Below are positions 30,001 through 33,000 of a DNA stretch of 36,655 nucleotides, in pieces. Location of the stretch: UHGV virus genome UHGV-0180966, one strand, 5' to 3'. The stretch comes from a virus. A program made the position numbers. Position 1 is the stretch's first letter. Every line of letters begins with the position of its first letter.

Positions 30001-33000
30001 CATGAATGCTCTGAATACAGCGGTCGCAAGACAGGAACGGCTTGGGACGTCTGCCAATCAAAGCCTGCTTACATCCTTGCGTAACCTACGTGAAGAATTA
30101 GCAAACCCTGCAACTGATTTGGATGTTACGTTTGATCTCTTGCGTCAGCACAGAACAGCATTTAGATCTAATGTTCAGGGAGATGCTATGGTCTTCCCCA
30201 ACCAGGCAAAAGCAGCTACCAATATGGTAGAGAATGCAATGTCAAAAGACCTTCGTAACGCAGTTGCTAAAAACCTCGGTGCATCAGACGCAGCAAAATA
30301 CCTTAAAGCAAATTCCGATTATGCAAACGTTTATAATAAGGTGCTTAATAAAAACATTGCCAACAAGCTCAACAAGGCAAGCAGTGAAGCCAGTCCTGAA
30401 CTTATAAATACCGTTGTATTAAGCAGAAAACCATCTGACGTGAAACGAATCTGGAGCGCATTGGATGATAAAGGGAAAGATGCTATGCGTGCAGCTTACG
30501 TCAGCAAAATAGCGGAAAAGGCCGGGGACTCTCCAGCCAAGTTCATCACTGAAGTTAATAAGCTGAAATCTCAGTCAGGCGGTGAAATTTACAACACTAT
30601 TTTTTCTGGAAAGCACATGAAAGAACTTGATGCTCTTCATGAAGTTCTACAGCAAACAGCAAGATCAGACACCGCAAATGTAGTAACTCAGACGGGGCAA
30701 TCACAAGCCAACAGGATAAGGACGATTGGCGCAACTGCGACTCTTGGAGTATCAATGGGGATTGAGGCTGGTTTTGGTGCAATGATGCGTTTGTATGAGT
30801 CCAAAGCAGCAAGGAATGCGCTCTTACGTCTGGCAAACACTAAAGCTGGAACGCCAGCCTATGAAAGAGCGCTGAATAACGCCGCAAATGCCATCAGACC
30901 AATACTTGCCAATGATGCAACTGATCGCTAAGGGTTGATGTCATGGATGTTGTTAATTGCGAATGGAATCGCGGAACTCTTTGCTTGATAGAAAAGGATC
31001 TGTTCTCCTTAACTCATCATAGTTTTTATTAAACTTTCTTGCTTCACCTGGGTATCTGTTGAACAAAACATTGCAGAAAAAAGAGAGCAATAACTCACAT
31101 ATGAATGCTAATACCCTGAAAAATAAAGGTATAAAAAGAAGGGAAGGTTCATTGAAGTCTCTATTCCAAACAAAATAGACAATCATCCCGACATACCAAA
31201 TTGATATCCCTATACTGATGATTGTTCCAACAGAGGTAACTACGATCCCGATTAAGTCGGACAGTCTGTTTGCCAGTAACTCATTTGAGTATCTTGCAAT
31301 CATATACCGCCAACATTTTGCAATATCATCCTGATCTGTAGAGTCTTCTGGAATAGCTAGGCTTCTACATATTGAAGTAGCTCTTTTTTTCTCAACTCTT
31401 TTTGAGAGCCATCCATTAAAGAGATACATCAACACCTGCGTTGCTATTCCTGCACCAAGTGATATCAAAGACATCCCCAAAAATCGCCATCCTGGAGATA
31501 GTGACTGGTATTGCCAAACAAAAAAAATTAAAAAACCCAATGAGCCTATGACATAGGCTGATGTATCGCTATATATATCTATTTTTTTCATTGAGTAGCC
31601 ACTCCTTAGTTTTGTGCGGTATGAAAAATTTAAATCAGGCCTTCATCGGTGAGTTTGCCGACAATCCACATCTCACCCTCGGCGTAGAACATGGCTCGCC
31701 GGTAACCATCCTCAGCTTTTAAGCTCTTGCAATCTTCTCAGCGCATTTACGCACAACTCGCGGTATCGTCTCTTTCAGCTCATCCCACGAGTTGACAAAC
31801 TCCATATCAAGAGCCTGAACAAGAGACTTCTGTATCTCGCTGCGCAACTGGTTGGTTTTTGCATCCTGAGAATCCCAGGTATCAAACCCGGTAACTTCAC
31901 GGATATCTATCGATTCCTTAACCACCTTTGCAACCTGAATGAAATGACCACTATGACCAATCCTACCTTCTGTACGCTCAAGCATCCGACTAACTGCTGC
32001 GTTAAGCTCCACAAAACTTGCCGCACCAATGTTTCGCAACTCGACCTGTCGCTGGGTGATAAAACGATCAATGACGAGAAAGTGGAAATAAGTGCTGTAC
32101 TGCTCGGCGACATACACCGCCAGATGGAGACTTAGCCACGTTTTCCCATTCCTTCCTCTCGTTGTTTTTAACGGAATAATACCAGTCTCCTCTTCACAAA
32201 CACGCATGAAGTCTTTGCAGTCATCCGTTTTCAGTATCTGAGCAAGATTTCTTGGTTGAAGGCCGTTATCAAATCTCCATCGGTTCATTTGAACGGTTAG
32301 TGTTGACGCATCGATATACTCATCTCTGGTGAACTCGACTTCACCGTATGGGAACTCTAAAGTCTGCACTTTCATATCTTTTTCTCCAATTAATTACCTC
32401 ACTTAAATTATATTCCTAATTTATTTGTTTATGCAACCATTAATACGCAAAATTAGAGCAAATTAGACTTTTTAGGTGTTTGCGTGTGAACAATCTCTAG
32501 CCATGCCATCACTCCAAGTTAGTGTATTGACATGATAGAAGCACTCTACTATATTCTCAATAGGTCCACGGTGGACCCATGTTGTGAGGTGAATATGAAA
32601 GGAATGAGCAAAATGCCGCAGTTCAATTTGCGGTGGCCTAAAGAAGTATTGGATTTGGTCCGCAAGGTGGCGGAAGAGAATGGTCGGTCTGTTAACTCTG
32701 AGATTTATCAGAGAGTAATGGAAAGCTTTAAGAAGGAAGGGCGCATTGGCGCGTAAAGTTGAAGCCCCAACTGCGGGAGCAGTCAGGGCTTAAATCGCCA
32801 GTAAATTTTGAGGAAAAACTGACATGAAAAGTATAGCAACAGCAGTATCTACTATCAACGTGCCATTCCACGGCGCAGAGCTTTATGTCGTCAATCACAA
32901 CGGCGAACCGTATACCCCAATGAAACCTATCGTTGAGGGAATGGGTATGGATTGGGCTTCACAGTTTACAAAGTTAAAACAAAGATTTGCTAAAGGTATT

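What the first reader, a model, noticed from the sequence alone, without database searches (positions are those of the whole stretch)
32376..32594. immI control region retains an mnt-operator-like palindrome although no mnt gene is present
The 15-bp perfect palindrome GGTCCACGGTGGACC (32563-32577) lies just downstream of a Pant-like promoter and the arc operator ATGATAGAAGCACTCTACTAT. No ribbon-helix-helix Mnt-like ORF exists on either strand between 30950 and 32600; the leftward gene is the KilA-N protein instead. Ant expression would then depend only on Arc and the sar-like antisense RNA, or on a trans-acting Mnt from another prophage.
Basis: partly seen in the sequence, partly recalled or inferred. 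Interest (0 to 1): 0.5.

Follow-up and report, generated by a model that had tools for sequence, protein, structure and literature searches.

The report
Orphan Mnt operator in lytic P22-like phage
The palindrome is a genuine binding site for the phage P22 "Mnt" repressor, left behind when the repressor gene was swapped for a gene from an unrelated phage; the phage carrying it no longer has the genes for dormancy, so this is an evolutionary leftover rather than a new control system.

Summary
GGTCCACGGTGGACC sits at 32563-32577 inside the 17-bp site AGGTCCACGGTGGACCC. This matches the annotated P22 Mnt operator at 16 of 17 positions. It is identical to the operator of phage epsilon34, which has mnt. 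Pant, the Arc operator, Pmnt, arc, sar RNA and an ant gene are all present. No mnt gene exists in the window: only its start codon and three further codons survive (32493-32504).

From codon 5 leftward, mnt is replaced by a cassette about 86% identical to virulent Salmonella Jerseyviruses. The cassette holds a 218-aa KilA-N-family gene and its upstream region. The joint lies in a 14-bp patch of microhomology. The operator lies on the arc side of the crossover, so it was simply kept.

The same joint occurs in 21 metagenome contigs. In IMG/VR, 94 of 94 contigs with this operator carry mnt, so the arrangement is rare.

The phage looks obligately lytic:
- Its HK022-type cI has a 317-bp frameshifting deletion.
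- Its cI operators are mutated.
- No integrase is present.

A maintenance repressor is therefore dispensable. The operator has no ligand encoded in cis and could respond only to Mnt from a resident prophage. Interest is modest: a new mosaic variant of a well-known, highly variable region.

The parts
32562..32578 (.). Mnt operator (O_mnt), AGGTCCACGGTGGACCC. The perfect 15-bp palindrome is 32563-32577.
   Evidence: It matches the operator annotated in P22 record BK000583 at 16 of 17 positions. It is identical, flanks included, to epsilon34 (L094), which has mnt. Nine of 80 IMG/VR loci that have mnt also carry C at position 17. It is the only site in the window within 3 mismatches of O_mnt.
32527..32555 (+). 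Pant promoter (TTGACA-17-TATATT), driving arc and ant
   Evidence: Identical to the P22 Pant annotation. It scores 11 of 12 in the promoter scan.
32532..32552 (.). Arc operator (O_arc), ATGATAGAAGCACTCTACTAT, between the -35 and -10 of Pant
   Evidence: Identical to the P22 annotation. It is the only such site in the window.
32532..32560 (-). Pmnt promoter (TTGAGA-17-TATCAT). It now points into the mnt stub and the KilA-N-family gene.
   Evidence: Identical to the P22 Pmnt annotation. It scores 10 of 12 in the promoter scan. No terminator-like site was found between it and 32376.
32472..32504 (-). mnt stub. The start codon and codons 2-4 (MARD, 32493-32504) are P22-derived and run into a 10-codon ORF, MARDCSHANT*.
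   Evidence: Homology to P22 starts exactly at 32493, which is mnt codon 4. Translation.
32493..32506 (.). Crossover zone: a 14-bp microhomology, ATCTCTAGCCATGC, shared (12 of 14, one gap) by P22-like and Jerseyvirus DNA
   Evidence: The P22 match begins at 32493. The Jerseyvirus match ends at 32506. Four-sequence alignment of the window, phi135, L012 and P22.
31741..32506 (-). Jerseyvirus-derived cassette: most of the 218-aa gene plus its 117-bp upstream region
   Evidence: 85-87% nucleotide identity to many Jerseyvirus genomes, such as phi135 and vB_SenS-Ent1. In phi135 the gene is a lone leftward gene between the portal and head-morphogenesis genes, with its own annotated promoter and terminator.
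31719..32375 (-). 218-aa KilA-N-family gene (predicted DNA-binding protein, function unknown), occupying the place of mnt and orf59a
   Evidence: PHROG 6095, E 1e-122. Pfam KilA-N is below threshold for this protein, but 32 of the 40 aligned family members match it. AlphaFold2 pLDDT 93.9. Foldseek hits to DdrC and the Mbp1 APSES domain.
32407..32436 (-). Likely own promoter of the KilA-N cassette (TTGCAT-18-TATAAT)
   Evidence: Read directly from the sequence. It is conserved in phi135 and L012. It lies within the region corresponding to the promoter annotated in phi135. It falls below the scan's threshold because only 3 of 6 bases match in the -35, so it is inferred.
32595..32756 (+). arc (53 aa)
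   Evidence: Pfam Arc, E 1e-30. 98% identical to P22 Arc.
32757..32823 (-). sar antisense RNA
   Evidence: Rfam RF00262, 62 bits against a gathering score of 43, E 7e-12, full-length match.
32830..32858 (-). Psar promoter (TTGATA-17-TATACT, with an extended TG)
   Evidence: Promoter scan, 10 of 12. It is in the same position as the annotated P22 sar promoter.
32824..33555 (+). ant allele (243 aa) with the P22 antirepressor N-terminal domain
   Evidence: Pfam P22_AR_N, E 1.5e-44. 43% identical to P22 Ant. About 92-95% nucleotide identity to the ant of Salmonella phages UPF_BP1 and S.Kent 1-2-1.
30953..31591 (-). SieA-like superinfection-exclusion gene (context: left end of the 'ant moron')
   Evidence: 28% identical to P22 SieA, E 1e-19. 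PHROG 7745. PF26849 SIEA.
2111..2666 (-). Remnant of an HK022-type cI repressor gene with a 317-bp out-of-frame internal deletion (joint at 2417|2418). Context that makes mnt dispensable.
   Evidence: 98% identical to HK022 cI-cro apart from the deletion. The same truncated gene occurs in contigs from three other samples.

Best explanation
The palindrome is the authentic P22-type Mnt operator. It has no repressor encoded in cis and is most likely a passively retained relic.

How mnt was lost (shown). A P22-like phage carried a complete epsilon34-type immI cassette: mnt, then Pmnt/O_arc/Pant/O_mnt, then arc, sar and ant. It recombined with a virulent Jerseyvirus within a 14-bp patch of chance similarity that overlaps the mnt start codon. 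Everything to the left of mnt codon 4 (mnt and orf59a) was replaced by a Jerseyvirus cassette. That cassette carries a KilA-N-family gene and its own upstream region. O_mnt lies on the arc side of the crossover, downstream of the Pant -10, so it came through untouched.

Why mnt is dispensable. The phage has also lost lysogeny (shown from sequence; the lifestyle itself is inferred):
- Its HK022-type cI carries a frameshifting 317-bp deletion.
- All five annotated cI operators are mutated.
- There is no integrase where P22-like phages keep it.

A maintenance-of-lysogeny repressor is therefore no longer needed.

How it probably works now (inferred from the established P22 circuit).
1. On infection, Pant fires without repression.
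2. Arc accumulates and shuts down both Pant and Pmnt at O_arc.
3. sar RNA limits ant translation.
4. O_mnt stays empty unless the host carries a P22-like prophage that makes Mnt. In that case Mnt would be expected to bind, repress arc-ant, and relieve Pmnt, which now reads into the KilA-N-family gene.
For: Identity of the site.
- It matches annotated P22 O_mnt at 16 of 17 positions, in the canonical place relative to Pant, O_arc and Pmnt.
- The 102-bp control region is identical to that of epsilon34, which has mnt.

Loss of mnt.
- There is no Mnt homologue in the window, and none within 6 kb in ten related contigs.
- P22 homology starts exactly at mnt codon 4.

Donor and joint.
- Positions 31741-32506 are 85-87% identical to Jerseyviruses, where the gene is a self-contained leftward cassette.
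- The two homologies overlap by 14 bp.

Not an assembly artefact. The exact 218-aa protein is on 21 contigs from several samples and assemblers, and all ten loci retrieved have the same joint.

Rarity. Mnt is found upstream in 80 of 80 IMG/VR loci retrieved by arc, and in 94 of 94 retrieved by the operator pattern. No phage record and no complete E. coli genome spans the joint.

Loss of lysogeny.
- The cI deletion is seen in independent samples.
- 7 of 17 substitutions relative to HK022 fall in the 75 bp of annotated operators (P = 2e-4).
- There is no integrase-sized ORF, and only about 700 bp lies between the tailspike and the early-left genes.

Fit with the literature. This 'ant moron' region is described as highly fluid, with ten types in sixteen genomes (PMC2629481).
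Against: - Nothing here measures selection on the operator. It is identical to that of relatives that have mnt, so there is no substitution signal either way.
- A sister allele (B), found in eight of the ten loci retrieved, has changes in the operator and in the Pant -35. However, its P22-type segment differs by 6-11% while the adjacent Jerseyvirus segment differs by 0.3-1.7%. That pattern indicates a second recombination rather than in-place decay, so allele B cannot be used as evidence of neutral drift.
- The contig is not closed, so mnt could in principle lie in the missing segment.
- Binding of Mnt to the position-17 C variant is inferred from natural variation, not measured.
- The host is unknown. 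The closest phages overall infect E. coli, whereas the donor cassette resembles Salmonella phages.
Confidence: 0.74

Rival explanations
1. The operator is kept by selection as a sensor of resident P22-like prophages. Mnt made by the resident prophage binds O_mnt, shuts off arc-ant, and thereby switches on Pmnt. Pmnt now drives the KilA-N-family gene and possibly the sieA-like gene. The lytic phage would thus use a foreign repressor as an input signal.
For: - Pmnt, O_mnt and Pant are all intact, and Pmnt reads into the new gene with no predicted terminator between them.
- mnt homologues occur in 341 of 5,426 complete E. coli genomes, so Mnt in trans is a realistic condition.
- In P22, Mnt is known both to repress Pant and to activate Pmnt (established knowledge; the circuit is summarised in PMC11016777).
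Against: - The cassette brings its own conserved promoter, so it does not need Pmnt.
- Sister allele B has changes in the operator and in the Pant -35 yet persists in more contigs.
- There is no comparative signal of constraint.
- Repression of ant by a resident prophage would more plausibly harm the incoming phage.
Confidence: 0.07
2. The palindrome is maintained for an RNA-level role. Pant transcripts start at or next to it, so it forms a 5'-terminal hairpin on the arc-ant mRNA that could stabilise the message, independently of Mnt.
For: - The predicted 5' hairpin has 6 or 7 base pairs with a 3-nt loop. Minimum free energy of the 47-48-nt leader is -12.4 kcal/mol for the window variant and -10.7, -8.4 and -9.8 for the other three variants tested (P22, allele B and a central-C variant).
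- The hairpin forms in all four variants. The allele B change A to G turns a U-A pair into a U-G pair.
Against: - Any palindromic operator forms such a hairpin, so this is expected by construction.
- Z-scores against shuffles are weak (-0.1 to -1.9).
- The exact transcript start was not determined here.
- No compensatory changes on both sides of the stem were seen among 80 loci.
Confidence: 0.1
3. The KilA-N-family protein has functionally replaced Mnt and binds the palindrome or a nearby site to control Pant.
For: - It occupies the mnt position, divergent from arc.
- It is predicted to be a DNA-binding protein of the KilA-N/APSES type.
Against: - In its native Jerseyvirus context there is no site resembling O_mnt, even allowing 3 mismatches.
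- Its fold is unrelated to the ribbon-helix-helix fold.
- The gene arrived by illegitimate recombination with its own upstream region. Pre-adapted recognition of a foreign 17-bp operator would be a coincidence.
Confidence: 0.03
4. An mnt gene exists elsewhere in this phage, in the unsequenced segment between abc2 and c3, so the operator is not orphan.
For: The contig has no terminal overlap. It ends at the abc2 start codon, so a few kb of the early-left operon are missing.
Against: - In all 174 locus retrievals examined that have mnt (two overlapping IMG/VR sets), mnt lies immediately upstream of Pant.
- The stub shows that the resident copy was destroyed.
- The missing segment corresponds to recombination genes in relatives such as CUS-3 and P22 (established gene order).
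Confidence: 0.03
5. The junction is a chimeric metagenome assembly of a P22-like phage and a Jerseyvirus.
For: The contig comes from a metagenome.
Against: - The same joint appears in contigs from ENA, NCBI and Logan assemblies of different samples, made with different assemblers and in two allelic forms.
- A 14-bp imperfect overlap is too short to mislead assemblers that use k-mers of 119, the k indicated by the k119_ contig names.
- The contig name records coverage of about 2,167x.
Confidence: 0.01

Closest known systems
Phage P22 immI region (mnt / Pmnt-O_arc-Pant-O_mnt / arc / sar / ant), as annotated in BK000583
   Same: - Same location, between gene 16/sieA and the tailspike.
- Pant, Pmnt and O_arc are identical, and O_mnt matches at 16 of 17 positions.
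- Arc is 98% identical, and sar RNA is present.
   Different: - mnt and orf59a are absent; only 4 codons of mnt remain.
- The ant allele is only 43% identical and is shorter (243 against 300 aa).
- The sieA homologue is only 28% identical.
Salmonella phage epsilon34 immI ('ant moron', Villafane et al. 2008, PMC2629481)
   Same: It is the best nucleotide match to the control-arc segment, at 95.3%. The control region is identical, including the position-17 C variant of O_mnt and the following ATGTTG (L094).
   Different: epsilon34 has a functional-looking mnt (gene 16) and is temperate.
Ant morons of ST64T, ST104 and phage L, which carry only mnt or an mnt-like gene
   Same: These are the mirror-image case of a broken immI in P22-like phages: a repressor gene without arc and ant (PMC2629481; PMC8022706). 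They show that immI components are commonly separated.
   Different: There the repressor is orphan. Here the operator is orphan.
CUS-3 and HS-1 type ant morons (ant present, arc absent)
   Same: CUS-3 is the closest phage overall, at 95.8% identity over 63% of 24.7 kb. It is another example of ant with an incomplete set of regulators.
   Different: Here arc is present and mnt is missing. No listed phage record spans this junction.
Jerseyvirus (Guernseyvirinae) KilA-N-family cassette, for example phi135 gene 56 and vB_SenS-Ent1 gp04
   Same: 85-87% nucleotide identity across the gene and its upstream region. The proteins are 87-93% identical.
   Different: In Jerseyviruses the gene lies between the portal and head-morphogenesis genes of a virulent siphovirus. 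Here it abuts the P22-type Pmnt.
Classical virulent mutants of temperate phages (lambda vir; P22 virA and virB) - from established knowledge, not tested here
   Same: The combination of repressor loss, operator mutations and unrestrained antirepressor resembles the genotypes that let such mutants grow lytically and on immune lysogens.
   Different: This is a naturally circulating lineage that also lacks integrase. P22 virA mutants alter the Mnt-sensitive control of ant, whereas here the operator is intact and the repressor gene is gone.

Membership tests
P22-type immI region | Located between the ejection-protein gene 16 / sieA and the tailspike gene | tested here: met
   The gene 16 homologue is at 29105-30931, the SieA-like gene at 30953-31591, and the tailspike with its head-binding domain at 33617-35071.
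P22-type immI region | Pant promoter with the 21-bp Arc operator between its -35 and -10 | tested here: met
   Identical to the P22 annotation.
P22-type immI region | 17-bp symmetric Mnt operator just downstream of the Pant -10 | tested here: met
   It matches P22 at 16 of 17 positions and is identical to epsilon34. The position-17 C variant occurs in 9 of 80 loci that have mnt.
P22-type immI region | arc gene (ribbon-helix-helix) as the first gene of the Pant operon | tested here: met
   Pfam Arc, E 1e-30. 98% identical to P22 Arc.
P22-type immI region | sar antisense RNA across the arc-ant junction | tested here: met
   Rfam RF00262, 62 bits against a gathering score of 43. A Psar-like promoter is present.
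P22-type immI region | ant antirepressor gene | tested here: met
   Pfam P22_AR_N, E 1.5e-44. This is a divergent allele, 43% identical to P22 Ant.
P22-type immI region | mnt gene transcribed divergently from Pmnt | tested here: not met
   Only codons 1-4 remain. There is no Mnt homologue in the window and no other ribbon-helix-helix ORF in the interval.
Functional Mnt operator | Specific binding by Mnt tetramer, and repression of Pant | not testable with these tools
   Only sequence identity with operators of phages that have mnt can be shown.
KilA-N domain proteins (the 218-aa protein) | Match to Pfam PF04383 above its gathering score, or a clear homology chain to members | tested here: inconclusive
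   The protein itself scores 16.8 bits, below the cut-off of 23.8. However, 32 of the 40 aligned family members match, best E 7e-18. The model resembles the Mbp1 APSES domain, probability 0.98, TM-score 0.46. Membership is likely through transitive homology.
Temperate lambdoid / P22-like phage (lysogeny competence) | Intact CI/C2-type repressor with an HTH domain and a peptidase S24 domain | tested here: not met
   A 317-bp out-of-frame deletion removes most of the N-terminal domain. It is seen in four samples.
Temperate lambdoid / P22-like phage (lysogeny competence) | Integrase and attP between the tailspike and the early-left genes | tested here: not met
   No ORF in the window gave an integrase match, and no ORF of integrase size is left unaccounted for. 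Rha/DUF2737 and abc2 follow the tailspike after about 700 bp. The caveat is that the contig is not closed.

The most novel reading that the evidence does not exclude
A lytic phage retains a foreign-repressor operator as a sensor of prophages. In hosts that carry a P22-like prophage, the resident Mnt would bind the orphan operator and flip the overlapping divergent Pant/Pmnt promoter pair from arc-ant to leftward transcription. The newly acquired KilA-N-family gene, and perhaps the sieA-like gene, would then be induced specifically in lysogens.
Probability: 0.06. Interest if true: 0.6.

Novelty: new variant of a known kind. Interest (0 to 1): 0.3.

Why it matters
It is a clean, base-resolved example of how phage regulatory circuits are dismantled. 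A repressor gene was removed by illegitimate recombination with an unrelated virulent phage at a 14-bp microhomology, while its operator, both promoters and the rest of the circuit stayed intact.

It documents a naturally circulating P22-like lineage, found in several metagenomes, that appears to have become obligately lytic. The evidence is a cI deletion, mutated cI operators, no integrase and no mnt. That is relevant to choosing phages for therapy and to understanding how temperate phages turn virulent.

The orphan operator also defines a testable interaction between phage and prophage. About 6% of complete E. coli genomes carry an mnt homologue that could silence this phage's antirepressor in trans.

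It does not reveal a new mechanism.

Tried and rejected
1. Sister allele B as evidence that the orphan operator decays. Allele B has O_mnt AGGTCCACTGTGGGCC and the Pant -35 changed from TTGACA to CTGGCA. I rejected this reading. The Jerseyvirus-derived part is 98.3-99.7% identical between the two alleles, but the P22-type part is only 89-94% identical. The difference therefore comes from a second recombination, not from in-place mutation. Each individual operator change also occurs singly in phages that have mnt. No closer source with mnt for allele B was found; the best match was about 93%.

2. Statistical significance of the palindrome by itself. It is not significant: 7 comparable palindromes in the window against about 2 expected.

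3. Scan of one genome per species with the 218-aa protein. It gave a single locus, in a Taishania (Bacteroidota) assembly. This is evidently a contaminating Jerseyvirus contig and says nothing about the host.

4. Search of complete E. coli genomes and of the phage collection for the junction. None spans it.

5. NCBIfam search. No named family for the 218-aa, SieA-like or Ant proteins.

6. The PHROG label 'amidase' for the 218-aa family. I rejected it as a likely annotation carry-over, because Pfam and fold evidence point to KilA-N/APSES.

7. The idea that the KilA-N-family protein brings its own copy of the operator. There is no site resembling O_mnt in the Jerseyvirus loci.

8. Host assignment. 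It remains unresolved. The virion and early genes are closest to E. coli phages such as CUS-3 and HK022, while the immI control region, the ant allele and the cassette are closest to Salmonella phages.
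Full report
**What is in the sequence**

The interval 32376-32594 is the intergenic region between a leftward 218-aa gene (31719-32375) and arc (32595-32756). The palindrome GGTCCACGGTGGACC lies at 32563-32577, as reported. An alignment with P22 (record BK000583, with experimentally based annotation) shows unbroken identity from 32493 through base 16 of the operator (32577). That stretch contains:
- Pant, TTGACA-17-TATATT, at 32527-32555.
- The 21-bp Arc operator, at 32532-32552.
- Pmnt on the other strand, TTGAGA-17-TATCAT, at 32560-32532.
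- The 17-bp Mnt operator, at 32562-32578.

The operator reads AGGTCCACGGTGGACCC, against AGGTCCACGGTGGACCT in P22. The promoter scan recovers Pant, Pmnt and a sar promoter.

Downstream lie three further parts of the cassette:
- arc: Pfam Arc E 1e-30, 98% identical to P22 Arc.
- sar RNA: Rfam RF00262, 62 bits against a gathering score of 43, at 32757-32823 on the minus strand.
- A 243-aa ant allele with the P22 antirepressor N-terminal domain.

A palindrome of this size is not rare by itself. The window has 7, against about 2 expected. The evidence that it is an Mnt operator is its identity and position, not its symmetry.

**Is mnt really absent?**

Yes, within the 36.6 kb available.
- tblastn with P22 Mnt finds only the paralogue Arc.
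- Ten small ORFs in or overlapping 31059-32756 give no ribbon-helix-helix match apart from Arc.
- None of ten related contigs has mnt within 6 kb.

A stub of mnt does survive. P22 homology begins exactly at mnt codon 4, so ATG GCT AGA GAT (MARD, 32504-32493) remains and runs into a 10-codon ORF.

The contig is not closed. It ends at the start codon of abc2 and has no terminal overlap. An mnt elsewhere therefore cannot be excluded absolutely. In all 174 locus retrievals examined that have mnt (two overlapping IMG/VR sets), however, the gene sits immediately upstream of Pant.

**How mnt was lost**

Positions 31741-32506 are 85-87% identical to many Jerseyvirus genomes. These are virulent Salmonella siphoviruses such as phi135 and vB_SenS-Ent1. 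In phi135 the homologous gene is a lone leftward cassette between the portal and head-morphogenesis genes, with its own annotated promoter and terminator.

The Jerseyvirus match ends at 32506 and the P22 match begins at 32493. The two overlap in ATCTCTAGCCATGC, which reads ATCTAT-GCCATGC in Jerseyviruses. The simplest reading is illegitimate recombination at this microhomology. It replaced mnt from codon 5 on, and orf59a, with the foreign cassette. The left joint lies within the last few codons of the 218-aa gene.

The operator lies on the arc side of the crossover, so it was retained by position alone.

The cassette's probable promoter, TTGCAT-18-TATAAT at 32436-32407, is conserved in the Jerseyvirus sequences. 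It lies within the region corresponding to the promoter annotated in phi135. It falls below the scan's threshold, so it is an inference.

**The replacing gene**

- By itself the 218-aa protein misses the Pfam KilA-N threshold (E 0.0064).
- It belongs to PHROG 6095 (E 1e-122).
- 32 of the 40 aligned family members (the protein itself plus 39 homologues) match KilA-N, best E 7e-18.
- An AlphaFold2 model is confident (pLDDT 93.9).
- Foldseek finds the DNA-binding protein DdrC (E 2e-4) and the Mbp1 APSES DNA-binding domain (probability 0.98). From established knowledge, the APSES domain is the eukaryotic relative of KilA-N.

The protein is not a ribbon-helix-helix protein. Its native phage context has no site resembling O_mnt.

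**Is the arrangement real, and how common is it?**

The window is an ENA metagenome contig (ERZ1034905, NODE_344, coverage about 2,167x by its name). The exact 218-aa protein occurs on 21 contigs from several samples and assemblers. All ten loci retrieved carry the same joint. Assembly chimerism is therefore excluded.

The arrangement is rare.
- Among 80 IMG/VR loci with a close arc, all have mnt.
- Among 97 IMG/VR contigs with the exact Pant-O_mnt pattern, all 94 with enough flanking sequence have a full-length mnt.
- No record in the phage collection and no complete E. coli genome spans the joint.

**Is the operator still a good operator?**

The only difference from P22 is position 17, T to C. 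This is natural variation: 9 of 80 loci that have mnt carry C there. The window's control region is base-for-base identical to that of epsilon34, which has mnt. The central base also varies (G, C or T) in phages that have mnt. The site should therefore be competent for Mnt binding. This is an inference, not a measurement.

**The two alleles**

- Allele A (the window and L010) has the P22/epsilon34-type region with arc and ant.
- Allele B (eight of the ten loci retrieved) lacks ant. It has -35 CTGGCA, one change in O_arc and two changes in O_mnt.

This looks like decay of an unused control region, but the numbers argue otherwise. Between the alleles, identity is:

| Segment | Identity |
|---|---|
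| 218-aa gene | 99.7% |
| Jerseyvirus-derived spacer | 98.3% |
| P22-type control region | 89.2% |
| arc | 94% |

Such a step in divergence points to a further recombination with another immI allele, not to mutation in place. I found no closer source with mnt for allele B; the best match was about 93%. Allele B therefore neither supports nor refutes neutrality. It does show that this region keeps being exchanged, which could also refresh an unused operator.

**Context: the phage appears to have abandoned lysogeny**

- The immunity region is HK022-type, 98% identical. Its cI carries a 317-bp out-of-frame deletion (joint at 2417|2418) that removes most of the DNA-binding domain.
- The same truncated gene is seen in three other samples.
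- Of 17 substitutions relative to HK022 in the homologous stretch (window 1967-2900), 7 fall within the five annotated 15-bp operators. The expected number is 1.4 (P = 2e-4). One of them turns the PR -35 from TTGACT into the consensus TTGACA.
- No integrase is present. Rha/DUF2737 and abc2 follow the tailspike after about 700 bp, and the related contigs show the same layout.

In P22, Mnt keeps ant silent in the prophage (established knowledge; circuit summarised in PMC11016777). A phage that no longer forms lysogens has no use for it.

**Most likely mechanism now**

This is inferred from the P22 circuit.
1. Pant fires on infection.
2. Arc then represses Pant and Pmnt at O_arc.
3. sar limits ant translation.
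4. O_mnt stays unoccupied unless the host carries a P22-like prophage.

mnt homologues are present in 341 of 5,426 complete E. coli genomes, so Mnt in trans is a realistic condition. In that case Pant would be repressed and Pmnt relieved. Pmnt now reads through the mnt stub into the KilA-N-family gene, with no predicted terminator between them.

**Rivals**

- Selection for such trans-sensing. This is the most novel reading. It is weakened by the cassette's own promoter and by allele B.
- An RNA role for the palindrome as a 5' hairpin on the arc-ant mRNA. A hairpin of 6-7 base pairs is predicted for the four variants folded, but that is trivially expected of any palindrome, and the z-scores are weak.
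- Functional replacement of Mnt by the KilA-N-family protein (unlikely).
- mnt elsewhere in the unsequenced segment.
- An assembly artefact (excluded).

**Comparison with what is known**

The region between gene 16 and the tailspike is the 'ant moron'. It has been described as unusually fluid, with ten types in sixteen genomes. Known types include mnt only (ST64T, ST104), ant without arc (CUS-3, HS-1) and degraded arc or ant (Scho1, HK620) (PMC2629481). Phage L keeps only a poorly conserved mnt-like gene (PMC8022706).

The present case, arc-sar-ant with an intact O_mnt but no mnt, is the mirror image of the mnt-only types. It was not found in the phage or E. coli collections searched, nor in the papers read here. 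It fails the membership test for a complete immI on one defining feature, mnt, while meeting all the others.

**Verdict**

The feature is a new mosaic variant of a well-known system, best explained as a passively retained orphan operator in a P22-like lineage that has become lytic. Interest is modest.

Noticed in passing
window 2111-2666 (joint at 2417|2418): The HK022-type cI repressor gene (98% identical to HK022) has a 317-bp out-of-frame internal deletion that removes most of the DNA-binding domain. The same truncated gene occurs in contigs from three other samples, so it is fixed in the lineage and is not an assembly error.
   Followed up: yes
window 2018, 2050, 2497, 2527, 2531, 2541, 2556: Of 17 substitutions relative to HK022 in the homologous stretch (window 1967-2900), 7 fall in the five annotated 15-bp cI operators (expected 1.4, P = 2e-4). 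One turns the PR -35 from TTGACT into the consensus TTGACA. This pattern resembles virulent operator mutants.
   Followed up: partly
window 35072-36655: No integrase, excisionase, attP or O-antigen conversion genes lie between the tailspike and the early-left genes (Rha/DUF2737 protein, abc2). Related contigs L002-L008 show the same layout. The lineage looks obligately lytic. The contig ends exactly at the abc2 start codon and is not closed.
   Followed up: partly
L002-L005, L007-L009, L011 (for example L002:5625-6000): A second allele of the same mnt-replacement junction lacks ant and has a 52-aa Arc with an altered C-terminus. It also has a degraded Pant -35 (CTGGCA) and a changed operator (AGGTCCACTGTGGGCC). 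Its P22-type part is 6-11% divergent from the window, while the adjacent Jerseyvirus part is 0.3-1.7% divergent. This implies a further recombination at or next to the joint.
   Followed up: partly
L012 (NZ_JACVEL010000022.1, Taishania pollutisoli scaffold22): An 18,987-bp scaffold in a Bacteroidota genome assembly carries Jerseyvirus-type portal, terminase and KilA-N-family genes. It is almost certainly a contaminating enterobacterial phage contig.
   Followed up: no
window 31719-32375 / PHROG 6095: This protein family is labelled 'amidase' in PHROGs and in several GenBank Jerseyvirus records. Pfam matches of 32 of the 40 aligned family members (KilA-N) and the predicted fold (APSES/DdrC-like, mostly helical C-terminal half) indicate a DNA-binding protein. 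The amidase label is probably an annotation error that has been propagated.
   Followed up: partly
window 31634-31718 (minus strand): The 127-bp spacer between the KilA-N-family gene and the sieA-like gene holds an open stretch, AEDGYRRAMFYAEGEMWIVGKLTDEGLI*, without a start codon. It may be the 3' fragment of a gene destroyed at the left recombination joint.
   Followed up: no
window 1475-1891, 4258-7164, 25317-25862: Several homing-endonuclease-type elements are present. There is an HNH endonuclease gene next to the cI remnant. There is an HNH/NUMOD4 gene among the head-completion and tail genes (gene call and Pfam hit in L006). The 968-aa primase/helicase has a weak LAGLIDADG hit, suggesting an inserted homing endonuclease or intein.
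   Followed up: no
window 33617-35071: The tailspike is short (484 aa). It has the conserved P22 head-binding domain, but no Pfam family matched its receptor-binding part. The allele B relatives carry a different 895-aa tailspike. The host therefore remains uncertain: the virion genes are closest to E. coli phage CUS-3, while the immI control region, the ant allele and the cassette are closest to Salmonella phages.
   Followed up: no
window 35803-36501 (minus strand): The mechanical ORF joins a DUF2737 segment to a Rha regulatory domain (232 aa from a TTG start). The gene caller gives 181 aa. In related contigs DUF2737 is a separate 54-55-aa gene.
   Followed up: no
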